Source: a phage. Taken from it: 50,355 nt of DNA. Shown here piece after piece: positions 1 through 42,287 of the stretch; position 1 is the stretch's first letter, and each line of letters opens with the position of its first letter. The stretch is taken from sequence record PZ871096.1; one strand, given 5' to 3'. The notes beneath the pieces are model-generated. The model ran no database searches. It was not told the DNA's origin and saw only the letters and a program-made list of their open reading frames with translations. The position numbers were made by a program, and so were the translations under genes.

Positions 1-528
1 ATGGCTAAAAATGTTGAGCCTGCTGTAAAGGCATTAAATTTCAAAGAGTTATACAATAAAACTTATGGAGATATTGTTACGCTAAACAACCGCCACAAGT
101 ACACGCCGGAACAGGTTTTTGATATGGCGATCCGCTATTTCACTTGGGCCGAAGAGAATCACATCCAGGCGGCTGAAACTGCTTCCTTTCAGGGTGACGT
201 GCACGAAAGCAGAGTTTACAAGCCTCGCGTTTTCACGGTTAACGGATTCAGCTTGTATCTCGGCGTTACTGAGGCGGCTGTAAGCAAATGGCGTAAAGAG
301 CCTGGATTCTGCGATGTGATGGAGTTTGTTGATAAAGTAATTTACGAGCAAAAATTCCAGCTTGCGGCAAATAACATGATTAACGCTGGATTTATCGGTA
401 AAGAGATCGGAGTAGAGAAGCCAGCAACAGTGAGCGTTGAAGCGAGCGCGGCAGCTAATGCAAGCATTGACGCAGTAACTGCCGATGAGGTGAAAGAGGC
501 TGTGATTGATATTCTGGAGCAACTTTAA
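1..528 (+). CDS. terminase small subunit
   Basis: 175-aa ORF immediately upstream of and overlapping (ATGA) the large terminase; position and size typical of TerS; SD AGGAGG lies at the window end (50343-50348) if the sequence is circular. Confidence 0.6.
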   Translation: MAKNVEPAVKALNFKELYNKTYGDIVTLNNRHKYTPEQVFDMAIRYFTWAEENHIQAAETASFQGDVHESRVYKPRVFTVNGFSLYLGVTEAAVSKWRKEPGFCDVMEFVDKVIYEQKFQLAANNMINAGFIGKEIGVEKPATVSVEASAAANASIDAVTADEVKEAVIDILEQL

Positions 529-2096
529 TGATCATATGGGAAGATTTGACGGCGGCGCAAAAGCGAGCCATTAAAGAAATCAGTGAGCATTCATTCGAAA
601 AGATGATTAGAATCTGGTTCCAGTTATTGCAGGGGCAAAAATTCCAGAGCAACTGGCATTTTAGCTTATTGTGCAGAGAGGTAGAGAAGATCATCAATGG
701 AGAGTCGCAGAATGTGATTTTCAACATTACGCCAGGTAGCGGTAAGACTGAGATTTTCTCGATCCACATGTCACCCTACGCGTCATTGAAAAGCCGGAAG
801 GTGAGAAATCTTAACCTTTCGTTTAGTGATGGCCTTGTCCAGCAAAACAGCAACCGGATAAAGGAGATTATTGGTTCTCCTGAGTGGCAAGAGCTATGGC
901 CTGGGAAACTGGCAAAGGCGAGCGCTAAAGATCTGATAGTCACCGAAGGCGGCAAGGTTAAATTGCAAGCTAACTCACGTTCTATTGGCGGCCAGGTAAC
1001 AGGTTTGCGTGGCGGCTATATGGACGATGGTTTTACTGGTATGCTGGTTCTTGACGATCCAGACAAGCCGGATGACATGCTTTCTAAGGTTAAGCGTGAG
1101 GCGATCCACATGCGGTTAAAAAACACAGTGCGATCGCGTCGAATGAAAGACACCACGCCGATTGTTATGGTGCAACAGCGACTACACGTTAATGATTCCA
1201 CCTGGTTTATGCTTAATGGCGGGATGGGTGGTATTGAGTTTAAAGTTGTGAGCATTCCGGCGCTGGTTACGGAAGAATACCGCGAAACGCTTCCTGATTG
1301 GTTGAAGCCTGAATTTGATCGTGATGTGCTGTCAAGTAAGCCAGTTATGATAGATGGCGTTGCTCATTATTCATTCTGGCCTGCGAAGGAAAGCGCGGAG
1401 GAGTTGCTCGCATTGCGCAATGCAGATCCTTACACGTTCGCCAGCCAATACCAACAGCAACCAATCGCGCTGGGCGGGAACGTGTTTAAAACAGAGTGGT
1501 TCCAGTATTACGGCAGCGGCGAAAAATGCGCACTACCAAAACCGGATCGCTTTGAATACACATTTATTACTGGAGATACCGCGCAGAAGGCCGGAGAGCT
1601 TAACGACTATTCAGTTTTTTGTTACTGGGGGATGTATAAGAATCGCGTTTACTTCATTGATGGCATTCGCGGAAAGTGGGAAGCGCCGGATCTTGAATTA
1701 AATTTTATTGCCTTCGTTAATCAGTGCTGGAAGCGCAATAAGGAGTGTGGCAGCTTGCGACGTATCCACATTGAGGATAAGGCCAGCGGCACTGGTTTGA
1801 TTCAGGGGGCCAAAAAGAAGATCCCGATTGATATAAATCCCGTTCAGCGAAGCAATGACAAGGTAACGCGAGCAATGGACGCCGCGCCAGTGATGAGGGC
1901 CGGACGTGTGGCGCTGCCAGAAAATCACCCCATGCTGCCTGAGATACTGGCAGAGGTTGCAGCATTCACTTTTGATGATTCTCATCCCCATGATGATATT
2001 GTCGATAATATAGTTGATGCTGTTAACGTCGAAATGAACTTGGCAGATGATCCGGTGGCAAGGATGAAAAAGCTGGCTGGTCTACGCAATAAATAG
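528..2096 (+). CDS. terL: terminase large subunit
   Basis: 522 aa; ATPase and nuclease-type motifs (e.g. GMLVLDDPDKPDD Walker B-like); first gene pair of the packaging module. Confidence 0.85.
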   Translation: MIIWEDLTAAQKRAIKEISEHSFEKMIRIWFQLLQGQKFQSNWHFSLLCREVEKIINGESQNVIFNITPGSGKTEIFSIHMSPYASLKSRKVRNLNLSFSDGLVQQNSNRIKEIIGSPEWQELWPGKLAKASAKDLIVTEGGKVKLQANSRSIGGQVTGLRGGYMDDGFTGMLVLDDPDKPDDMLSKVKREAIHMRLKNTVRSRRMKDTTPIVMVQQRLHVNDSTWFMLNGGMGGIEFKVVSIPALVTEEYRETLPDWLKPEFDRDVLSSKPVMIDGVAHYSFWPAKESAEELLALRNADPYTFASQYQQQPIALGGNVFKTEWFQYYGSGEKCALPKPDRFEYTFITGDTAQKAGELNDYSVFCYWGMYKNRVYFIDGIRGKWEAPDLELNFIAFVNQCWKRNKECGSLRRIHIEDKASGTGLIQGAKKKIPIDINPVQRSNDKVTRAMDAAPVMRAGRVALPENHPMLPEILAEVAAFTFDDSHPHDDIVDNIVDAVNVEMNLADDPVARMKKLAGLRNK

Positions 2097-26101: not shown

Positions 26102-27031
26102 TTATAGCAGTGATTCGGGCTTGTAGAGTTTTCTTTCTACGCCCTGTTTAAAATTATCGTTAACAGGCATCATTATGTCAAGACCTCTTTCCTCTGCCGA
26201 GATTATCACATCACGATCATCTTTCCGGCAGACTACACGCATTCTTCTTTCTCCTTTATATCTATGCGCAACCATTTCAAGATTTGAAGGAGTAAAGCAA
26301 GCCCACACCTCTTGACCAGTTGATAAATGAACATGCTGGGAGTCAACCCAATCAAGGCACAAATAGATCGTCTTATCTGTGCTACCTGTTTTAACAACAG
26401 ATCCGCGCGTGTAGTCGCGAGCTAAAAACCAATCCTTTCCATCCTCATCAATGAAAAGCACGTTACACATTTCATCATCCAGCCCGTCATCATGCACCAG
26501 GTGACAAGGTAGCGCGTGAATGTATCGACCATCCTTGACGCCGCAATCATAATAACAATCTTCCGGCGGATATATCCCCTCATAAACGCTTAAGGGTGTG
26601 CGATCGAATTTTAATGTTTTTGCCATCACTTTTTCGCAGCATTCATGACTTGCCTGTTTCCCGAACGAGTAACCAGAAGAACGCGAAGCGCGCTTGTTTG
26701 CTCTGATCCTGTAATCCTGCGGCACTTTTCCGAGGAAGCGGCCCAAAATGTTGATGGCCTCGCTGTAAGGTTCGCCAGTTAATTTCATTAACCAACCGAT
26801 CCCTGTGTCGTTACCGCATACGTTGCAGATAGCGCCGCCGTCGCCCTCTTCATTTAGCTTATCAGTCCATCTAAAACGATCCTTGCCGCCGCAGTGTGGG
26901 CAAGGCTGATGCTTTTTGTTGAAAACATCGCTATGCAGTCCGCAAATGCTTTGTAGTGCTTCACGCCATAACCCCTTCATATATGGCAAAACGTCTTCTT
27001 TCTGATAGGTCATAAAGTTTTCAGTATTCAT
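26102..27031 (-). CDS. DNA primase (zinc-finger containing)
   Basis: ORF-track frame 26102-27109; start moved to ATG 27031 because a terminator hairpin (27041-27080) lies inside the longer frame; CPHCGG...CNVCG zinc-binding motif. Confidence 0.55.
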   Translation of the reverse strand: MNTENFMTYQKEDVLPYMKGLWREALQSICGLHSDVFNKKHQPCPHCGGKDRFRWTDKLNEEGDGGAICNVCGNDTGIGWLMKLTGEPYSEAINILGRFLGKVPQDYRIRANKRASRSSGYSFGKQASHECCEKVMAKTLKFDRTPLSVYEGIYPPEDCYYDCGVKDGRYIHALPCHLVHDDGLDDEMCNVLFIDEDGKDWFLARDYTRGSVVKTGSTDKTIYLCLDWVDSQHVHLSTGQEVWACFTPSNLEMVAHRYKGERRMRVVCRKDDRDVIISAEERGLDIMMPVNDNFKQGVERKLYKPESLL

Positions 27032-27040
27032 GGCAAACCC

Positions 27041-27080
27041 TAATAAAAAAGCCCAGCAAATATTATCATTTCGCTGGGCC
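27041..27080 (-). terminator. intrinsic terminator between regulator and primase genes
   Basis: minus strand GCCCAGC ... GCTGGGC stem followed by T6. Confidence 0.55.
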
Positions 27081-27086
27081 TTATCA

Positions 27087-27563
27087 TTAGCTATTCGTGC
27101 TGTTATCACCTTTGTAGAATCGTCCGCCTGGTTCGTAGTCTGAATTTTTGACTACGCGCAACATTTCGTATTTGTCGCAACGGGTAGTAAGAGGCTTGCC
27201 GTTAGAATCAAACCGCAGATCTGGACGACAAAACGAGGCGCGGTATCCTTTGCATCCATTATATTTGTAGTCGTTATGCACCTTTTGTGCTCCAGCGGCT
27301 GAAATCATACCACGCTTTCGCCACTGGTTAACGACTTGCTGAGATACGCGCAGACGTCGGGCCATAGCAGGAACACCGCCGTAATACTCGATCAGAATGT
27401 CAAGGCGAGATTTCAGGCTTGCTTTTACCTCATCTCGCAGGATAAGAAATCCGGTTCGGTGTTTTCGTGGCTTTTTGTCTTTACCTCGTCGCGTTCCGTT
27501 GTTACCGTTAATAGTGCGCTTGTCGATCTCACCAGTAGATACTGCAATTCGTGCATCTTTCAT
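27087..27563 (-). CDS. HTH DNA-binding protein (Cro/CI / YdaS-like helix-turn-helix)
   Basis: 158 aa; GGVPAMARRLRVSQQVVNQWRKRGMIS HTH signature; GAGGTGA SD; divergent from helicase gene. Confidence 0.55.
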   Translation of the reverse strand: MKDARIAVSTGEIDKRTINGNNGTRRGKDKKPRKHRTGFLILRDEVKASLKSRLDILIEYYGGVPAMARRLRVSQQVVNQWRKRGMISAAGAQKVHNDYKYNGCKGYRASFCRPDLRFDSNGKPLTTRCDKYEMLRVVKNSDYEPGGRFYKGDNSTNS

Positions 27564-29648: not shown

Positions 29649-30067
29649 TGGCTATAACTGATAAAGGCGATTATCTTGAGTTTTACGAAAGGGATCCAAC
29701 CGACACGAGAAGGGAAGTTAATCACCAGATAGATAGTTTTCAGTGGTTGACTTATGCTCATCCTTATTTGCTGGCGTGGCATACGGTAAACGAGAATGAG
29801 AAGTCTAAAGTAACGGCGATGATTGATCAGCAGTCCGGCTTGGTTAAGGGAGTAAGCGATTTCATCATCCTGATTGGTTTAAACGGAAAATACCCCTTTG
29901 CAGCGATTGAGATCAAACGAGTGAATAAATCAGGCAAGGGGAAAGCATCACCAGTCAGCGATGAGCAAAAGGCTTTTTTGCGTCGCGTTCGCAGCTTAGG
30001 AGGATTCGCTGCGGTAGCCTACGGATTCAATCAGTTTAAGTTGGCTATTGAATACATGCTTAAATAG
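29648..30067 (+). CDS. VRR-NUC domain nuclease
   Basis: 139 aa; GVSDFIIL...AAIEIK...SPVSDEQ matches the VRR-NUC PD-(D/E)XK signature. Confidence 0.65.
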   Translation: MAITDKGDYLEFYERDPTDTRREVNHQIDSFQWLTYAHPYLLAWHTVNENEKSKVTAMIDQQSGLVKGVSDFIILIGLNGKYPFAAIEIKRVNKSGKGKASPVSDEQKAFLRRVRSLGGFAAVAYGFNQFKLAIEYMLK

Positions 30068-30107
30068 CACTTTTTGTTAAAACTGGCGCGATGGATTGCG
30101 CCATAAT
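30064..30107 (+). promoter_or_regulatory. conserved-box promoter
   Basis: ATAGCACTTTTTGTTAAAAC, 18-nt inverted-repeat spacer (GGCGC...GCGCC), CATAAT. Confidence 0.5.
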
Positions 30108-30147
30108 TCAATAACACGAGATGGCTTTTAATAGCGGAGAAATGAAA

Positions 30148-30873
30148 ATGGCTAAAGATATTTTAGATAAAGACACACATGACGCATTCGTTAGCTTTGA
30201 GCAGTTGGAGAGAGAAACGTTTATAGGGAATGCCCTTGCAACTGGAGGCCATTACCAGGCAGTAAAGCCAAATCAATATTATAAGGTAAGCGGAAACCGA
30301 TACGCTGGAAGCACTACGCCGGACGTTGTGCGAGATATGTGGAGCACGCCTCAAGAGATCGTGGAGTGGATGGAATCAGAATTTGGTGAATACGATCTCG
30401 ACGCGGCAGCAAGCCAGGAAAACGCAGTTTGCGAGAAGTTCTATAGCAAGGAGACAAACTGCTTAAAGCGTTGGTGGGGTAGCAACAAGCACGTATGGCT
30501 TAACCCGCCGTACAGCAACCCAACTCCATTTATCAAGAAAGCAATTGAGCAAATGGAGCACAACAACCAAATTGATGTTTTGTTGCCAGCCGACAACTCT
30601 ACAGCATGGTTTTATGAGGCGCAGAAAAACGCGGCTGAAATCATCTGGATCACTGGTGAGGTTTACGAAGAGGGTGGGGTAGAATACTCCCGCACCGGAA
30701 GAATTGCCTTTGTGTCTGGATTGACTGGCGAGCCTGTGCAGGGCAACAACAAGGGAAGCGTGATTTTTGTCATGCGCAAACTTAAAGAAGGCGAGGAGCA
30801 GAAAACGCGATACGTTAAGATCAGCGATATTTGCCCTTCTGTAACCGAACGTCGCGCACGCAAACGGAGCTAA
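30148..30873 (+). CDS. dam: DNA N6-adenine methyltransferase (phage Dam family)
   Basis: ORF-track frame 30121-30873; ATG 30148 best placed relative to GGAG; catalytic NPPY motif (WLNPPYS). Confidence 0.75.
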   Translation: MAKDILDKDTHDAFVSFEQLERETFIGNALATGGHYQAVKPNQYYKVSGNRYAGSTTPDVVRDMWSTPQEIVEWMESEFGEYDLDAAASQENAVCEKFYSKETNCLKRWWGSNKHVWLNPPYSNPTPFIKKAIEQMEHNNQIDVLLPADNSTAWFYEAQKNAAEIIWITGEVYEEGGVEYSRTGRIAFVSGLTGEPVQGNNKGSVIFVMRKLKEGEEQKTRYVKISDICPSVTERRARKRS

Positions 30874-36774: not shown

Positions 36775-37157
36775 AGATATTTACCCTCAAAAAGATAACA
36801 GCCGCCAGCAGAGAATCCGACCTCTTCACGGTACAGGTTCCAGCGGTCGCCGCACTCATCAAAAACATAACCCGCAACGCTTCCAAGCGGTCGCCCTTTC
36901 TCGATCTGGTATCGCTTGCCCTGCTTAAAGTGCTTTTTGCACGGCATGTTATGATCTACAAACGTGCAAAGAACGGTTTTTGTGTTAATGGCGCGGTAAT
37001 CATCTCGTTTTGCTGGAAGCCAGCGGCTACCCTTAACAAGCGTCTTAACCTGGAATTCTTCCACCTCGATCACATCATCACTTCCTGCAATCTTCTGATA
37101 AACCGTTTTAAAACGGCCTTTCATCAATACGTTGGTTTCATTACAGATAACATTCAT
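36771..37157 (-). CDS. hypothetical protein
   Basis: 128 aa ORF, operon context. Confidence 0.45.
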   Translation of the reverse strand: MNVICNETNVLMKGRFKTVYQKIAGSDDVIEVEEFQVKTLVKGSRWLPAKRDDYRAINTKTVLCTFVDHNMPCKKHFKQGKRYQIEKGRPLGSVAGYVFDECGDRWNLYREEVGFSAGGCYLFEGKYL

Positions 37158-37186: not shown

Positions 37187-37230
37187 ATTATGCCAGGTTT
37201 TTACACCTGGCTTTTAACAAAAAGTGCTAT
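37187..37230 (-). promoter_or_regulatory. conserved-box promoter
   Basis: minus strand ATAGCACTTTTTGTTAAAAG, hairpin spacer GCCAGG...CCTGGC, CATAAT. Confidence 0.5.
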
Positions 37231-37937
37231 TTTGAGTTTGACTCAAAGACGGCGCGAGCAAATCCGCGCGGAGTGAGGGAGCGGATCATCTTTGTGCGCG
37301 ATGACTTCCCGCCAGTTTTGGCCCAGCCTGGATTATCTTTGTCTTCCTCTTTCGGCAGGATTAAAGCGCGCGGAGGAATAACAAAGCCGTTGCCAGTCCA
37401 GAGGCACGTTTTCTTAAAATAGCGATCCCGTGCCGGAATAATATCAGGGAAGTCGGGATGTTTATCATCTTCCGGCAGATAGCCAGCGTAATCGCACGGA
37501 TGGAACGTATAATCAGGCTTTCGCCATAACGTTGACAACTTGCCAACCGGATTTTCGATCATGTAAGGAACACCGAAATAATCAGCTATATCAGCCGCGA
37601 TTCTGCAAGTGTCGGCGGCCTCATCCTGGAATGATGGATTCTCAAGGCGTTTTTTGGCCCAATGGCGAGATCCGCTATTTGCAAGGTCGGTGCATGGTGG
37701 GAAGGCCATAATAAAATCAGGATTGCCCAACTCATTATTGATTGCCTTAACATAAAAAGCATCATCAATCCAGACGTTAACGTATTCGATATTCTCATGC
37801 TGTATGCGCACTGACTGGTAATCACCGTGATCGCCACCGTCAGCATTAAAGCAAATGCACTTATAGCCATTATCAGCCCAATCTTTAACGGCTTTACCAG
37901 ATCCATCAAATAGGGAGAATATTAAACCTTTATACAT
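37227..37937 (-). CDS. DNA (cytosine-5)-methyltransferase
   Basis: ORF-track frame 37227-38006; ATG 37937 with GAGGT SD; motif I LFDGSG, motif IV FPPC(T), motif VI ENPVG in canonical order. Confidence 0.6.
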   Translation of the reverse strand: MYKGLIFSLFDGSGKAVKDWADNGYKCICFNADGGDHGDYQSVRIQHENIEYVNVWIDDAFYVKAINNELGNPDFIMAFPPCTDLANSGSRHWAKKRLENPSFQDEAADTCRIAADIADYFGVPYMIENPVGKLSTLWRKPDYTFHPCDYAGYLPEDDKHPDFPDIIPARDRYFKKTCLWTGNGFVIPPRALILPKEEDKDNPGWAKTGGKSSRTKMIRSLTPRGFARAVFESNSK

Positions 37938-37947
37938 CGTCATTACC

Positions 37948-38172
37948 TCAAAACGGAAAACAGCGCGCACAACCAGGATCGAAATCGCATCCACAATCAT
38001 TAACAATCATAGTGGGATCTGCAAATATTGCGCTTGATTCAAGATCCATATCCATATCACCTAAAGCCTCATCAAGAGTCTTAATTTTATATGCCACTTC
38101 AAGCGCCGCCTCTTTATTTAGTCCGGCATCTTCTGCCATTTGAAGGCGCTCAAAAAAGCCGTCTTGACTCAT
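37948..38172 (-). CDS. hypothetical acidic protein
   Basis: 74 aa ORF. Confidence 0.4.
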   Translation of the reverse strand: MSQDGFFERLQMAEDAGLNKEAALEVAYKIKTLDEALGDMDMDLESSAIFADPTMIVNDCGCDFDPGCARCFPF

Positions 38173-38663: not shown

Positions 38664-38876
38664 TCACTTCTTATTTTTCATCTTAAATTTATGGCCTGGA
38701 ACACCAGAACCAATATAGCCATCGTTGTATTCCATTAAATAAAGGTGAAGGCCATTATCTGAAATTACATGAGGATCTTCTTTGAGATTTCCCATTAGCG
38801 GGTATTCTTTTCCGCGCGTAAATCTCCAAGTTGAGTCATAAGTTTCTACGCATTTAAGTTTTAATTGCTTTGCCAT
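38664..38876 (-). CDS. hypothetical protein
   Basis: 70 aa ORF. Confidence 0.4.
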   Translation of the reverse strand: MAKQLKLKCVETYDSTWRFTRGKEYPLMGNLKEDPHVISDNGLHLYLMEYNDGYIGSGVPGHKFKMKNKK

Positions 38877-39073
38877 TAGATGATCTCCATGTATGTTTCA
38901 AAGCCATTTAACTTGAACAGGCCGTTTTCACATTTGCGAACGTTCCAAGTTAGCCCTGAGTGGTACGCCTCCATATCATCAAGGTCAATGGTGATTTCAG
39001 CACCTTTCTTAAACAAACCTTTTTCGTGAGACTTGTCGCGCTTAACAACTTTAACATCAACCTGATTTTCCAT
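38876..39073 (-). CDS. hypothetical protein
   Basis: 65 aa ORF; SD GAGGA; downstream of promoter 39105-39148. Confidence 0.45.
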   Translation of the reverse strand: MENQVDVKVVKRDKSHEKGLFKKGAEITIDLDDMEAYHSGLTWNVRKCENGLFKLNGFETYMEII

Positions 39074-39424: not shown

Positions 39425-39637
39425 TTATCGTAAAGATTTAAAGACGTATAGTTTATTGCGGTAACTATATATCCGCATTGTTATTTCTCGCAGTGCAATA
39501 TATTCCTTCCTGTTTTCCGGCAGACTGGCGAGCAACAACAGACAGTATTTATAAGCGCGGTCAAGATTTCTTTCCGTGCCCCTGCAATATCCCTTGTTGC
39601 GCCTGGAACGGTACAGCCATAACAATTTCTTGAACAT
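39425..39637 (-). CDS. hypothetical basic Cys-rich protein
   Basis: ORF-track frame 39425-39727; start uncertain, ATG 39637 chosen because it directly follows the upstream stop. Confidence 0.3.
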   Translation of the reverse strand: MFKKLLWLYRSRRNKGYCRGTERNLDRAYKYCLLLLASLPENRKEYIALREITMRIYSYRNKLYVFKSLR

Positions 39638-39638
39638 T

Positions 39639-39848
39639 TCAGATACGCCCATACAGATCGCAAACTTCATTGATAAAACAGCGTTGAGACTCTTTATCCT
39701 GCTTCTCAAAAATTGCGCGGCATTCAAACTTAAGATTATGCACGATGACTACAACCATATTTTCAGGCATTGAGCGGTTATAGCGTCGCGCGTCAGTGAT
39801 TAAAACATCCATACCCATCTCACGGGCTTTCTTGATCACATCCAACAT
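39639..39848 (-). CDS. hypothetical protein
   Basis: ORF-track frame 39639-39872; ATG 39848 with AGGAG SD. Confidence 0.4.
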   Translation of the reverse strand: MLDVIKKAREMGMDVLITDARRYNRSMPENMVVVIVHNLKFECRAIFEKQDKESQRCFINEVCDLYGRI

Positions 39849-40102
39849 TTTTTCTTCTCCTGCAATAAGCAAACATCATTGATAAAATCAGCACGGCCCT
39901 TAATGTTGCTGATGTGGAACGTCTTTTCAGCGTACAGGCCATCACCTTCAATCACGATCATTACGCGAGTCGGTTTATTCACGGGCGCACACGAAAAGAG
40001 TGGTCGCGCCGGAAGAAATTTAGTGGTCACATCCAGGTTAGCCCTGGCGGCCCTGCAAAACGCCTCCGCCAGATCCAAATCATTTTCGGTAATCACCGCC
40101 AT
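39836..40102 (-). CDS. hypothetical protein
   Basis: 88 aa; TAATG overlap with upstream gene. Confidence 0.4.
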   Translation of the reverse strand: MAVITENDLDLAEAFCRAARANLDVTTKFLPARPLFSCAPVNKPTRVMIVIEGDGLYAEKTFHISNIKGRADFINDVCLLQEKKKCWM

Positions 40103-40374
40103 TACTTTTTGATCTCCTTACTGATAAATTTCAGCACCTGGCGCAAGAAAACTTCGTTGTTGATAGTCGCTGGCAATTCTTCTTTCACTTCTTGCGGCAG
40201 ATAGATATTGCCGTGCCAGGTCAAGCAATCGTAGTTGATACGATAAGAGCAAAGCCACTCGCAATCGTTATCTGCTTCCCAAATGCAGAGTTGCAGAACA
40301 TCGCCAAAATCTTCAACAGTCAGATCCAGACCGTGACGCTTAGCGAAATTGAAAGTGGTTTTGCTGATGTTCAT
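40102..40374 (-). CDS. hypothetical protein (first gene of leftward early operon)
   Basis: 90 aa; AGGAGA SD 6 nt upstream. Confidence 0.45.
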   Translation of the reverse strand: MNISKTTFNFAKRHGLDLTVEDFGDVLQLCIWEADNDCEWLCSYRINYDCLTWHGNIYLPQEVKEELPATINNEVFLRQVLKFISKEIKK

Positions 40375-40409
40375 TTAATATCTCCTGAGCGGTTCGTTTC
40401 GATGTGTGT

Positions 40410-40453
40410 AATGTACCCGATCAGGTGGCCTGAGTTTTAACAAAAAGTGCTAT
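40410..40453 (-). promoter_or_regulatory. conserved-box promoter heading the leftward operon
   Basis: minus strand ATAGCACTTTTTGTTAAAAC, 18-nt spacer, TACATT. Confidence 0.45.
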
Positions 40454-40460
40454 TTGACGG

Positions 40461-40575
40461 TTATCGCCAGGATTGCGATAGAAATAATCAAAAGTAATCA
40501 TTCGTAATCAAATCACGTCAAAATGATGATTGCCTTTGCAAATTTGATGAGAAAAGTAATCACGTTTAATCATTG
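40461..40575. repeat. palindrome TATCGC-N7-GCGATA plus five TAATCA repeats (iteron/operator-like)
   Basis: TAATCA at 40486, 40495, 40505, 40558, 40567; AATCACG twice. Confidence 0.5.
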
Positions 40576-40736
40576 GTTGCAGGGGAGATAGTGAAACCTT
40601 CCCCTCTTGCCTCACTTTTCCGCCTGGCTGTCAGTGGTTGTTATGTTCCGTTCCCGCCTGTTCTTTTGTTGACCTTCCGCAAAATACGATAACAAAAAAT
40701 AACAAACAGTACCTATATAATACATTGAAAAATAAG

Positions 40737-40990
40737 GATTATTTATTTATATGTATCTATATATTCTCTTTTGTTATCTTGGTTATTGTGGTATTTGGTG
40801 GGGGTATATAGTTTTTGTGTATCTGTATGTGTGTGTGGGTATGTATGGGCATATATATCTATATGGCACTTTCCGCGAGAAAACTTCGATAACAGGCAAT
40901 GATAACATTGATTTATAAGGAAAAATAACGCCCATATTGTTATTGTGCCACCATATAAAATTGATAAAACACGCGGGAACAAGAAAAAAC
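40737..40990. repeat. AT-rich TG/TA-repeat element, copy B (homologous to 21238-21400)
   Basis: same blocks as copy A in the same order, same strand. Confidence 0.6.
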
Positions 40991-40992
40991 AG

Positions 40993-41021
40993 TTGACACA
41001 TTAAATAGCATTATTGATAAT
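40993..41021 (+). promoter_or_regulatory. strong sigma70-type promoter for rightward operon
   Basis: TTGACA (40993-40998), 17-nt spacer, GATAAT (41016-41021); spacer contains a degenerate copy of the conserved box (ATAGCATTATTGATAATG). Confidence 0.6.
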
Positions 41022-41050
41022 GCCCACACCTAACAACCAGGAGGTAGAAA

Positions 41051-41515
41051 ATGAGCGAGCAATCATTCACTGACACGCTGCGCCGTGCCGCTATTATGCT
41101 GGCTAATGGCGAGGAAGAGACGATCAAGATTCCTGACGCGTATTTGCAGGTCCACATGTTCGGCAAGAAGTCGGCAAGCAATCCTGCGGCCTACATTCGC
41201 CAGATCATGAGTCGAGTGCCAGAAGTCGCCGAGCGGGGGCGCGTATCCGTTACCCGTGGCGTTTACGGGCCGGAAGATGAAAACTTCGGTAGCACTTTCT
41301 ACGAGGTGCGGATTGTTGAAGGCCGTCGCAAGGTTTACAACAAAGAAGCACTGGAAAGGGCAGTGCGCCAGGCTAAGCGCAAGGTTGCAGAGGCGATCAT
41401 TGATATGTCACCAAACCTGGCAAACTATGCGCCGGAAGAGTACGAAACATTATCAAAGGCCGTCGCTGACTTTCACGCGATGATCAAAAAAACTTTCCTG
41501 GATGATGAGCAATGA
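41051..41515 (+). CDS. hypothetical protein
   Basis: 154 aa; SD AGGAGG. Confidence 0.5.
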   Translation: MSEQSFTDTLRRAAIMLANGEEETIKIPDAYLQVHMFGKKSASNPAAYIRQIMSRVPEVAERGRVSVTRGVYGPEDENFGSTFYEVRIVEGRRKVYNKEALERAVRQAKRKVAEAIIDMSPNLANYAPEEYETLSKAVADFHAMIKKTFLDDEQ

Positions 41516-41784
41516 AAAAGGCATTAATCAGCGTTTTGGCGGCAATGGCATTCCTGACCGGATGCAAAGAAGATGGCGCGCATGTTGGCAATGTGCAGAT
41601 GGCTAACCCTGGCGATGACTACAGCGTAAGGGAGCTATTCACCGCTGACGGTTGCACCGTTTACCGATTCTATGACGATCGCACTGTTTACTTCACCAAC
41701 TGCAAGGGCGCTACTAGCTGGGAAGTGTCGAAAAGCAATGGCAAAGGCACGAAGACAGAACATATGACCGTCGAGACAAAATAG
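41512..41784 (+). CDS. lipoprotein (second lipobox protein in genome)
   Basis: 90 aa; signal peptide and lipobox MKKALISVLAAMAFLTG|C. Confidence 0.55.
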   Translation: MKKALISVLAAMAFLTGCKEDGAHVGNVQMANPGDDYSVRELFTADGCTVYRFYDDRTVYFTNCKGATSWEVSKSNGKGTKTEHMTVETK

Positions 41785-41824
41785 CACTTTTTGTTAAAAC
41801 GCCAGGCGCGAAGCCTGGCATAAT
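41781..41824 (+). promoter_or_regulatory. conserved-box promoter
   Basis: ATAGCACTTTTTGTTAAAAC, spacer hairpin GCCAGGC-gcgaa-GCCTGGC, CATAAT. Confidence 0.5.
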
Positions 41825-41856
41825 AGCCTCATCGAAACGAGATTGAGGAAACAAAA

Positions 41857-42057: not shown

Positions 42058-42243
42058 ATGAAAACGAAATTAGTCCATAAATCAGAAATCAAGATCGGCG
42101 ATACTGTGATTCACAACGGCGAGCTTAGAACGGTTGGCAAAGAGTCAATAAGCCACGATGAATTTATGGGGATCTTGTTGTTCGGTGACTCTTATCGTCT
42201 TGGTTACAAGATGGTTGAGCTTGTGGAAGAGGTAAAATTCTAA
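42058..42243 (+). CDS. hypothetical small protein
   Basis: 61 aa ORF. Confidence 0.45.
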   Translation: MKTKLVHKSEIKIGDTVIHNGELRTVGKESISHDEFMGILLFGDSYRLGYKMVELVEEVKF

Positions 42244-42287
42244 ATAGCACTTTTTGTTAAAACTCAAAAACGATAACCAGGCATAAT
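42244..42287 (+). promoter_or_regulatory. conserved-box promoter driving a long GC-rich leader
   Basis: ATAGCACTTTTTGTTAAAAC, 18-nt spacer, CATAAT (42282-42287). Confidence 0.5.

What the first reader, a model, noticed from the sequence alone, without database searches (positions are those of the whole stretch)
40461..40575. Palindrome plus five TAATCA repeats between the divergent early promoters: operator or iteron candidate
Seen directly: palindrome TATCGC-cagga-tt-GCGATA at 40461-40480; TAATCA at 40486, 40495, 40505, 40558 and 40567, two of them extended to GTAATCA AATCACG. Direct repeats of this kind with a nearby AT-rich region are typical of replication-initiator or repressor binding arrays. 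The location is immediately upstream of the leftward operon promoter (40410-40453).
Basis: partly seen in the sequence, partly recalled or inferred. Interest (0 to 1): 0.5.

Follow-up and report, generated by a model that had tools for sequence, protein, structure and literature searches.

The report
Likely packaging-start (pac) repeats, T1-like phage
The TAATCA repeats are real, but they most likely mark the site where this T1-like phage starts cutting and packaging its DNA, not a repressor operator or a replication origin; the neighbouring palindrome is a chance match.

Summary
The window is a Warwickvirus (T1-like, Drexlerviridae) genome. Five exact TAATCA copies exist at 40485, 40495, 40505, 40557 and 40567, spaced 10, 10, 52 and 10 bp. 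Two looser copies lie at 40511 (+) and 40527 (-). Together they form the densest AATCA/TGATT cluster in the genome, on DNA predicted to be strongly curved.

The palindrome at 40462-40480 is perfect in none of 18 close relatives and is ordinary by chance.

The exact array occurs only in one shallow clade: 61 records, all at least 95.7% identical. The core motif YAATCAH, however, is the most enriched 5-mer at this position in nine otherwise unalignable lineages.

The published genome starts of T1 (start of its annotated terminal repeat), TLS (mapped pac) and Rtp, and the PhageTerm terminus of phage MSK, all fall inside or beside the homologous TGATT clusters. In window terms this is about 40520-40615.

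Best reading (about 0.55): the repeats are recognition elements of the pac site, bound by the P22-gp3-type small terminase encoded at 1-528, in a layout like the P1 pac site.

Rivals are an upstream regulatory array for the leftward promoter, origin iterons, host-factor sites, and plain curved spacer DNA. No binding or cutting has been shown.

The parts
40485..40516 (+). Block A: three exact TAATCA copies at 40485, 40495 and 40505 (10-bp phase), plus an overlapping looser copy AATCAC at 40511-40516.
   Evidence: Copies 1 and 2 are kept in 18/18 close relatives and copy 3 in 17/18. The AATCAC copy varies (14/18).
40527..40531 (-). Inverted copy of the core motif: TGATT on the + strand, which reads cAATCAt on the - strand. 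It lies between the two blocks.
   Evidence: ATGATTG is kept in 18/18 relatives. It sits near the position equivalent to the T1 and Rtp record starts (about 40521-40523).
40557..40572 (+). Block B: two exact TAATCA copies at 40557 and 40567 (10-bp phase). It is 72 bp from the matching part of block A; the two 29-nt units are 72% alike.
   Evidence: Copy 4 is kept in 16/18 relatives (CAATCA in the other 2, which still fits YAATCAH) and copy 5 in 18/18. Other lineages have TGATTAATCA or TTAATCAaGTGATTAA palindromes, or TGATTGTG, at this position.
40582..40598 (+). Semi-conserved block GGGGAGATAGTGAAACC next to block B; the probable neighbourhood of the first packaging cut.
   Evidence: for conservation across lineages. 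The records of XY3 (same array) and PHB17 (another genus) are both opened at the homologous nucleotide, GGGGAGATA|GTGAAACC, which is 40590|40591 here. The haarsle record is opened about 11 nt to the left. The MSK PhageTerm terminus lies about 23 nt to the right of the equivalent block.
40434..40455 (-). One of 15 copies of the T1-family direct repeat AAATAGCACTTTTTGTTAAAAC. It is the upstream element of the first leftward promoter.
   Evidence: Described for TLS as a 21-nt repeat of unknown function (PMC11447400).
40410..40415 (-). -10-like hexamer TACATT of the leftward promoter. The predicted transcript start is near 40403, which places block A at about -82 to -107 and block B at about -154 to -169.
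   Evidence: Relatives have TATAGT or CATAAT at the same place.
40462..40480 (.). Palindrome TATCGC-N7-GCGATA. Listed because the finding names it; judged a chance match and not part of the element.
   Evidence: 191 such inverted repeats in the window; perfect in 0/18 relatives.
1..528 (+). Small terminase gene (175 aa), the proposed trans-acting partner of the repeats.
   Evidence: PF16677 GP3_package, E = 3.7e-11. P22 gp3 structure 3P9A, E = 3.3e-15. Residues 86-98 are the most variable stretch across seven lineages. This allele (at least 95% identity) occurs in 61 phage records, the same number as carry the array.
528..2096 (+). Probable large terminase gene (522 aa), the nuclease that would make the cut.
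   Evidence: ORF. Relatives annotate the feature that abuts the small terminase gene as terminase large subunit. Not checked further.
40993..41021 (+). Near-consensus sigma-70 promoter TTGACA-17-GATAAT for the rightward operon. It bounds the non-coding region on the right (context).
   Evidence: An equivalent strong promoter lies 610-690 nt from the leftward gene in all ten lineages examined.
40700..40870 (.). Conserved AT-rich core of the non-coding region (TATAATAC ... TATATGTATCTATATA ... TTTTGTT), flanked by GATAACA/TGTTAT-type repeats (context; a possible origin).

Best explanation
The TAATCA array is this phage's version of a cluster of YAATCAH (TGATTR) motifs that marks the packaging initiation (pac) region of T1-like phages. 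The cluster lies in the roughly 675-bp non-coding region between the divergent operons.

Proposed mechanism: late in infection, an oligomer of the small terminase (gene 1-528, P22 gp3 family) binds the repeats. The repeats sit on one face of the helix, on intrinsically curved DNA. The large terminase then makes the first cut close by, at about 40520-40615, probably near the GGGGAGATA|GTGAAACC block. Headful packaging then runs rightwards through the rightward operon and on into the terminase and structural genes.

Shown here:
- The cluster is real, unique in the genome and kept in its clade.
- The core motif is enriched at the same place in many lineages whose sequences cannot otherwise be aligned.
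- The deposited or measured genome ends of four relatives lie in or next to their clusters.

Inferred, not shown: that the small terminase is the binding protein, and where this particular phage is cut.
For: 1. Position of genome ends. The T1 record starts with its annotated 2800-bp terminal repeat, 538 nt upstream of the first rightward gene. That start is inside a TGATT cluster with motifs at -40, -29, -5, +25 and +46, against a background of 0.59 per 100 nt.
2. The TLS pac site was mapped by restriction digests. The TLS record starts AGATTTTGTGATTGAAATTGATTTGATTTGATT, with another TGATT 14 nt before the record end.
3. The Rtp record starts in the homologous array.
4. The MSK PhageTerm terminus at 36,862 (forward, p = 1.6e-9; PMC8421802) lies in its non-coding region, with TGATT at -115, -106, -59, +10 and +16.
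5. PMC7718038 states that the T1 pac site lies in this untranslated region.
6. Anchored on the GGGG/GTGAAAC block, these ends map to window positions of about 40521-40614. XY3, which has the same array, is opened at 40590|40591.
7. Motif conservation. AATCA/TGATT is the most enriched 5-mer in the 168 nt upstream of the leftward repeat-promoter over nine lineages: 33 observed against 8.0 expected, p = 3e-11. Without the window it is 26 against 7.1, and every lineage has at least two copies. The consensus is YAATCAH. Lineage L057 has its own 10-bp-phased AATCA run.
8. The cluster is unique in the genome.
9. Spacing is 10 bp, and predicted curvature is in the top 0.3% of the genome.
10. The small terminase is of the pac-phage P22 gp3 type. 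Its most variable stretch is flanked by conserved sequence. The allele and the array each occur in 61 records.
11. The layout resembles the P1 pac site, which has TGATCA/G hexamers in sets of 4 and 3 around an IHF site and the cut (PMC10028697).
Against: - No sequencing reads or virion ends exist for this phage, so the cut site is inferred by homology only.
- The T1, TLS and Rtp starts came from restriction mapping followed by an author's choice of nucleotide. For TLS that choice was made by likeness to P22. How the XY3, PHB17 and haarsle records were opened is unknown.
- All copies in this phage lie to the left of the XY3-type junction; they do not flank it.
- Block A sits where other lineages carry different, operator-like arrays (TTATTCC/GGAATAA, or AGACCGATTGGTCT twice). 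Those arrays occur with several different small terminase variants. Block A could therefore be regulatory instead.
- The 61 = 61 co-occurrence may only reflect common descent, and the two sets were not compared record by record.
- P22 gp3 itself recognises a single site inside its own gene, not remote repeats.
- Within the clade, substitutions do not avoid the motif significantly: 2 variable sites in 30 motif positions against 7 in 66 others.
Confidence: 0.55

Rival explanations
1. Upstream regulatory array. A sequence-specific regulator, from the phage or the host, binds the phased repeats at about -82 to -169 and activates or represses the first leftward repeat-type promoter. This applies mainly to block A. 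It does not exclude a pac role for block B.
For: The array lies directly upstream of the promoter. In relatives the same slot holds other operator-like arrays: two direct TTATTCC plus two inverted GGAATAA in Hanrivervirus-like phages, BEBK14, L055 and T1, and AGACCGATTGGTCT twice in TLS. Those arrays recur with different small terminase variants, so that slot seems to serve something other than the terminase.
Against: Neighbouring genes encode no recognisable DNA-binding protein. The only helix-turn-helix protein found (27087-27563) is conserved across lineages and its recognition helix does not track array type. No good match to the Fur, CpxR, IHF, DnaA, PhoP, PmrA, ArcA, OmpR or Zur consensus. 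The sites do not overlap the core promoter. The core motif is shared by lineages whose promoter-proximal arrays differ.
Confidence: 0.2
2. Origin iterons. The repeats bind a phage initiator, and the non-coding region is the replication origin.
For: The origin of T1-like phages is unknown (PMC11447400; PMC7718038). The same non-coding region holds a conserved AT-rich core and GATAACA/TGTTAT-type repeats. Cumulative GC skew has a local minimum here.
Against: The repeat core is 6 bp, and orientation and number vary freely among lineages. The AT-rich core is about 200 bp away and has its own, better conserved repeats. There is no initiator gene next to it and no DnaA box. GC skew simply follows transcription direction. 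Nothing ties the TAATCA copies themselves to replication.
Confidence: 0.07
3. No dedicated binding protein. A local duplication produced an A-rich, intrinsically curved spacer that at most boosts the adjacent promoter, or does nothing.
For: The two blocks look like a diverged 29-nt duplication, 72% alike. Predicted curvature is extreme. Within the clade, substitutions do not spare the motif significantly. The exact array is confined to one shallow clade.
Against: The same 5-mer core is enriched at the same place in eight other lineages that share no alignable sequence there. Strong curvature is not conserved in those lineages. The segment is as conserved as the neighbouring coding DNA.
Confidence: 0.1
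4. Host nucleoid-protein sites, for example IHF, whose core is WATCAR. These would bend the region as an accessory to packaging or transcription.
For: Some copies read AATCAA. The P1 pac site needs IHF and HU (PMC10028697).
Against: No full IHF consensus WATCAANNNNTTR occurs in the region. Only 11 of 29 copies have A after the core.
Confidence: 0.06

Closest known systems
Bacteriophage P1 pac site
   Same: Both have a short hexamer repeated in two sets, with the cut in or near the array. P1 has TGATCA/G in sets of 4 and 3 within 161 bp, around an IHF site and the cleavage site (PMC10028697). Here TAATCA (TGATTA on the other strand) occurs in sets of 3 and 2 within 88 bp. The hexamers differ by one base. 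Both are thought to work through a bent nucleoprotein complex.
   Different: The P1 site lies inside pacA, and its hexamers carry GATC and are controlled by Dam methylation. The TAATCA copies carry no GATC, and the site is about 9.8 kb upstream of the small terminase gene, in non-coding DNA. The terminase families differ. No binding or cutting has been shown here.
Bacteriophage P22 pac site and gp3
   Same: The small terminase here belongs to the P22 gp3 family (PF16677; PDB 3P9A). T1-like phages package by the headful mechanism from a pac site (PMC11447400).
   Different: The P22 pac site is a single asymmetric sequence of about 22 bp inside gene 3 (as quoted). No P22-like pac sequence occurs in or near the small terminase gene here; matches are at chance level. 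The candidate site here is a remote repeat array.
Bacillus phage SPP1 pac site (pacL-pacC-pacR) and lambda cosB
   Same: From general knowledge, not tested here: the small terminase binds several short repeats, partly phased by one helical turn, on bent DNA on either side of or next to the cut. In lambda an IHF site lies between the repeats.
   Different: The proteins and sequences are unrelated. Lambda cuts at a fixed cos site and is not a headful packager.
Earlier proposals for the pac sequence of T1-like phages
   Same: Same genomic region. The T1 and TLS pac sites were mapped to this non-coding stretch.
   Different: Earlier guesses were AGATTT for TLS, by likeness to P22, and five ATATA repeats for T1, credited to Wietzorrek et al. 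2006 in PMC8421802. No paper I could search names the repeated TGATT/AATCA motif.

Membership tests
pac site of a headful-packaging phage (repeat type, as in P1 or SPP1) | The phage encodes a pac-type small and large terminase and packages by the headful mechanism | tested here: met
   The small terminase is PF16677, related to P22 gp3 structure 3P9A. Headful packaging of T1, TLS and MSK comes from the literature. It was not measured for this phage.
pac site of a headful-packaging phage (repeat type, as in P1 or SPP1) | The site coincides with the physical end of the first packaged genome | tested here: inconclusive
   Met in relatives: the T1 terminal-repeat start, the TLS mapped pac, the Rtp record start and the MSK PhageTerm terminus all lie in or beside their TGATT clusters. 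XY3, with the same array, is opened at 40590|40591. No reads exist for this phage, and the method behind several record starts is unknown.
pac site of a headful-packaging phage (repeat type, as in P1 or SPP1) | Single occurrence in the genome | tested here: met
   The only window with 6-7 AATCA/TGATT per 120 bp; the next best has 5 and the mean is 0.62.
pac site of a headful-packaging phage (repeat type, as in P1 or SPP1) | Several short recognition repeats, helically phased, on bent DNA | tested here: met
   Spacing of 10, 10, 52 and 10 bp. Predicted curvature in the top 0.3% (wedge parameters recalled from memory).
pac site of a headful-packaging phage (repeat type, as in P1 or SPP1) | Specific binding by the small terminase, and a requirement for packaging | not testable with these tools
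   Needs a gel-shift or footprint assay and packaging or transduction assays.
P22-type pac (single site inside the small terminase gene) | A sequence like AAGATTTATCTG within or near the small terminase gene | tested here: not met
   No match with up to 2 mismatches in 1-528. There are 7 matches genome-wide against 6.5 expected.
Operator of a promoter | Sites overlap or adjoin the promoter they control | tested here: inconclusive
   The sites adjoin the promoter (about -82 to -169) but do not overlap the repeat element or the -10.
Operator of a promoter | A cognate DNA-binding regulator that goes with the sites | tested here: not met
   No DNA-binding domain in the flanking genes. The only helix-turn-helix protein (27087-27563) does not co-vary with array type.
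Operator of a promoter | Sites kept together with the promoter and gene in relatives | tested here: not met
   Relatives with the same promoter and a 93-98% identical first gene carry other arrays.
Iteron-type replication origin | Direct repeats of about 17-22 bp in fixed orientation | tested here: not met
   The core is 6 bp in a 10-bp unit. Orientation and number differ among lineages.
Iteron-type replication origin | Adjacent AT-rich unwinding element, with an initiator gene or DnaA boxes | tested here: not met
   The AT-rich core starts about 130-200 bp to the right and has its own repeats. No DnaA box matches at 8 of 8 specified positions. No initiator gene is adjacent.
IHF binding site | WATCAANNNNTTR | tested here: not met
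   No full match in 40375-41050.

The most novel reading that the evidence does not exclude
The repeated YAATCAH/TGATTR motif is the recognition element of the T1-family pac site, whose sequence has stayed undefined since the site was mapped. On this reading, a P22-gp3-type small terminase does not recognise a single site inside its own gene. It recognises a remote, P1-like repeat array placed in the same non-coding control region as the early promoter and perhaps the origin. The lineage-specific flanks of the motif (TAATCA against CAATCA) and the hypervariable stretch of the small terminase (residues 86-98) would then set packaging specificity between related phages.
Probability: 0.45. Interest if true: 0.55.

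Novelty: new member of a known kind. Interest (0 to 1): 0.42.

Why it matters
T1-like phages are common laboratory and fermentation contaminants, generalised transducers and candidates for phage therapy. Their pac site has been mapped only roughly. The sequence guesses in print (AGATTT, or ATATA repeats) are not shared across the family.

A conserved, testable motif would help in three ways. Genome ends could be predicted from sequence. Packaging signals could be built for plasmids or phagemids. Packaging specificity between co-infecting relatives could be explained.

It also corrects the annotation of this feature. It is probably not an operator or an origin, and the palindrome should be dropped.

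Tried and rejected
- Rfam scan of 39500-41600: only chance-level hits, E of 0.4 or worse.
- Consensus scans for Fur, CpxR, IHF, DnaA, PhoP, PmrA, ArcA, OmpR and Zur: nothing in the region.
- Sigma-70 scans: only weak 8/12 candidates inside the array on either strand. A promoter inside the array is neither supported nor excluded.
- Small ORFs over the array (22-39 aa): different annotators call different ones. There is no evidence that they code.
- Curvature as the conserved property: extreme in this clade but not clearly so in other lineages.
- Phylogenetic profiling to find a co-varying binding protein: phages with other arrays are only about 75-79% identical genome-wide, BEBK14 included, so everything co-varies.
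- Recognition helix of the Cro/YdaS-like protein against array type: no clean pattern.
- Variable stretch of the small terminase against TAATCA or CAATCA flavour: no clean pattern.
- Searching IMG/VR for three 10-bp-phased TAATCA copies: it returned unrelated tandem repeats and was not followed up.
- A 20-mer search of metagenome contigs: three loci only, one of them unrelated.
- P22-like pac sequence: chance level.
- The T1 genome paper (Roberts et al. 2004) is not in the library, so I could not check how T1 coordinate 1 was fixed.

Full report
**What the window is**

The region matches Escherichia phages AV105, MikeNSara, atuna and others at about 98% identity. These are Drexlerviridae, subfamily Tempevirinae, genus Warwickvirus, that is, T1-like phages. 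The finding lies in a 675-bp non-coding region (40375-41050). On its left is a leftward operon whose first gene is 40102-40374 (-). On its right is a rightward operon whose first gene is 41051-41515 (+).

**Checking the observation**

- TAATCA occurs exactly at 40485, 40495, 40505, 40557 and 40567.
- Spacing is 10, 10, 52 and 10 bp.
- There is also an overlapping AATCAC at 40511 and an inverted TGATT at 40527.
- Five copies of one hexamer in 90 bp ties for the genome maximum. The other two such clusters are codon repeats in genes. Only 1 of 30 Markov-simulated genomes reached this value.
- For the 5-mer AATCA/TGATT, this is the single densest window: 7 per 120 bp against a mean of 0.62.
- The palindrome TATCGC-N7-GCGATA (40462-40480) exists, but 191 comparable inverted repeats occur in the window. 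It is perfect in none of 18 close relatives. I treat it as chance.

**The promoter next to the array**

The 'leftward promoter' is one of 15 co-oriented copies of AAATAGCACTTTTTGTTAAAAC. This is the direct repeat described for TLS, whose function is listed there as an open question (PMC11447400). Each copy is followed, 15-18 nt later, by a -10-like hexamer and then a conserved CATCGAAACGA. With the -10 at 40415-40410, block A of the array lies at about -82 to -107 and block B at about -154 to -169. The rightward operon has a near-consensus sigma-70 promoter at 40993-41021.

**Conservation of the array**

The array segment is found in 61 GenBank phage records, all 95.7-99.5% identical, with nothing more distant. 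In 18 sampled relatives:

- Copies 1, 2 and 5 are invariant.
- Copy 3 changes once, to TAATCG.
- Copy 4 changes twice, to CAATCA.

Variable sites number 2 in 30 motif positions against 7 in 66 other positions. That gives no statistical power. Conservation within the clade therefore says little.

**Other lineages**

Phages whose first leftward gene is 93-98% identical at the protein level have quite different sequence here. Two regularities emerge.

First, next to the promoter many lineages carry other operator-like arrays:
- Two direct TTATTCC plus two inverted GGAATAA occur in Hanrivervirus-like phages, L055 and BEBK14; T1 carries a shorter version, one ATTATTCC plus two inverted GGAATA(A).
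- AGACCGATTGGTCT occurs twice in TLS.

Second, further from the promoter, next to a semi-conserved GGGGA..GTGAAAC block, every lineage has AATCA/TGATT motifs in its own arrangement:
- TGATTAATCA in BEBK14.
- TTAATCAaGTGATTAA in Hanrivervirus.
- Three 10-bp-phased AATCAA copies in L057.
- GATGTGATTGTTGC twice in T1.

An unbiased count over the 168 nt upstream of the promoter repeat in nine lineages ranks AATCA/TGATT first of all 5-mers. It is seen 33 times against 8.0 expected (p = 3e-11). Without the window it is 26 against 7.1, and every lineage has at least two copies. The consensus is YAATCAH. The motif core is therefore a family-wide feature, while the exact array is the Warwickvirus version of it.

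**The link to packaging**

- The T1 reference record begins with its annotated 2800-bp terminal repeat. Coordinate 1 lies 538 nt upstream of the first rightward gene, that is, inside the homologous non-coding region. It sits in the middle of a TGATT cluster, with motifs at -40, -29, -5, +25 and +46.
- The TLS pac site was mapped by restriction digests. The TLS record starts AGATTTTGTGATTGAAATTGATTTGATTTGATT, with a further TGATT just before the record's end.
- The Rtp record starts in the homologous array.
- For the Rtp-like phage MSK, PhageTerm placed the forward packaging start at 36,862 (PMC8421802). In the record this is inside the non-coding region, with TGATT at -115, -106, -59, +10 and +16.
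- PMC7718038 states that the pac site of T1 and other T1-like phages lies in this untranslated region.
- Three further records are opened here. XY3 (same array as the window) and PHB17 (another genus) are opened at the same homologous nucleotide, GGGGAGATA|GTGAAACC, which is 40590|40591 here. The haarsle record is opened about 11 nt to the left. How those ends were chosen is unknown.

Anchored on the GGGG/GTGAAAC block, all these ends fall at window positions of about 40521-40614. This zone overlaps the right half of the finding and the block beside it.

**The proposed partner**

The gene at 1-528 is a small terminase of the P22 gp3 family (PF16677; PDB 3P9A). Across seven lineages its most variable 12-residue stretch is residues 86-98, between well conserved flanks. 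This allele (at least 95% identity) occurs in 61 records, the same number as carry the array, with a sharp drop to 90% or less beyond them. I did not compare the two sets record by record, and common descent alone could explain the match. No P22-type pac sequence is present in or near the gene.

**Physical properties**

A wedge model predicts that 40471-40600 is among the most curved 0.3% of 120-bp windows in the genome. The model parameters were recalled from memory. Curvature is only mildly raised in other lineages, so it is not the conserved property.

**Interpretation**

The best-supported reading is that the repeats belong to the pac site. The small terminase would bind phased repeats on bent DNA, the large terminase would cut nearby, and headful packaging would run rightwards. 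The closest analogue in layout is the P1 pac site, which has TGATCA/G hexamers in sets of 4 and 3 around an IHF site and the cut (PMC10028697). Binding by the terminase and the cut position in this phage are inferences.

The main rival is a regulatory array for the leftward promoter. It is strongest for block A, because that slot holds other operator-like arrays in relatives, and those arrays do not track the small terminase variant. The two readings can both be true for different blocks.

Origin iterons, host-factor sites and a plain curved spacer are weaker, for the reasons given under each rival. The wider non-coding region, with its conserved AT-rich core and GATAACA/TGTTAT-type repeats, remains a reasonable origin candidate in its own right.

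**Novelty**

That the T1 pac site lies in this region is known. The papers I could search propose AGATTT or ATATA repeats as its sequence, and none names the TGATT/AATCA repeats. I class the finding as a new member of a known kind (repeat-type pac sites) and of moderate interest. It makes the pac sequence of this phage family directly testable.

Noticed in passing
15 sites in the window, e.g. 30062-30083(+), 40434-40455(-), 41779-41800(+), 42242-42263(+): The T1-family direct repeat ATAGCACnnnTTGnTAAAA is listed as an open question in the TLS paper. It fits the MarA/SoxS/Rob 'marbox' consensus AYnGCACnnWnnRYYAAAY at 13-14 of 14 specified positions. It lies 15-18 nt upstream of a -10-like hexamer with no -35, which from memory is the layout of class II marbox promoters. 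The window has 18 such sites against 0-3 in shuffles. These promoters may depend on host Rob/MarA/SoxS or on a phage protein that mimics them.
   Followed up: partly
Downstream of each direct repeat, e.g. 30084-30130, 41801-41850: The spacer between the repeat and the -10 often holds a short GC-rich dyad whose sequence differs between copies while the symmetry is kept, for example GCCAGGC-gcgaa-GCCTGGC and GCCCGGC-ctagtgt-CGGGC. The transcript start region carries a conserved CATCGAAACGA.
   Followed up: no
40600-41050: The rest of the non-coding region has the same build in ten lineages: TTTTGTTC/TTCCGC motifs, an invariant TATAAT-like hexamer, a conserved AT-rich core, (G/T)AACAG or GATAACA repeats, then a near-consensus rightward sigma-70 promoter 610-690 nt from the leftward gene. 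It is a candidate replication origin or early control region. The right part (from about 40663) is a mosaic module shared at high identity by only 16 relatives.
   Followed up: partly
Relatives: L049/L051/L053, L055, L223 1555-1615 (BEBK14), L258 1150-1205 (T1), L291 285-325 (TLS): Directly upstream of the leftward repeat-promoter, other lineages carry operator-like arrays absent from the window. Two direct TTATTCC plus two inverted GGAATAA recur in three unrelated sequence contexts, with a shorter version (one ATTATTCC plus two inverted GGAATA(A)) in T1. The palindrome AGACCGATTGGTCT occurs twice in TLS. The binding protein is unknown.
   Followed up: partly
27087-27563 (-): A 158-aa protein with a Cro/YdaS-like helix-turn-helix (PF15943, PF14549, both below their cut-offs). 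It lies just upstream of the primase gene (26102-27109, zinc-ribbon primase domain) and faces the helicase gene. It is conserved across T1-like lineages. It could be the factor that binds the 22-nt repeat, or an origin-binding protein.
   Followed up: partly
38876-39073 (-): A 65-aa protein that matches PF25180, 'Phage antiviral trigger protein Gp54', at E = 1.7e-38.
   Followed up: no
40102-40374 (-): The 90-aa first gene of the leftward operon (phrog_6147, function unknown) has relatives at about 70-84% DNA identity over parts of the gene in 150-170-kb myoviruses (RB49-like, Phi1, rV5-like). This suggests exchange between unrelated phage groups.
   Followed up: no
40419-40422 and the equivalent spacers in relatives: GATC sites lie in the spacer between the direct repeat and the -10 of this promoter in most lineages. 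In 18 of 18 close relatives position 40480 is C, which makes another GATC at 40477-40480 that the window lacks. The phage encodes a Dam-type methylase at 30121-30873 and a second methyltransferase at 37227-38006.
   Followed up: no
1-528 (+), residues 86-98: The small terminase has a hypervariable stretch (YLGVTEAAVSKWR here) between conserved flanks. It aligns with P22 gp3 residues of about 75-87. It is a candidate determinant of packaging specificity.
   Followed up: partly
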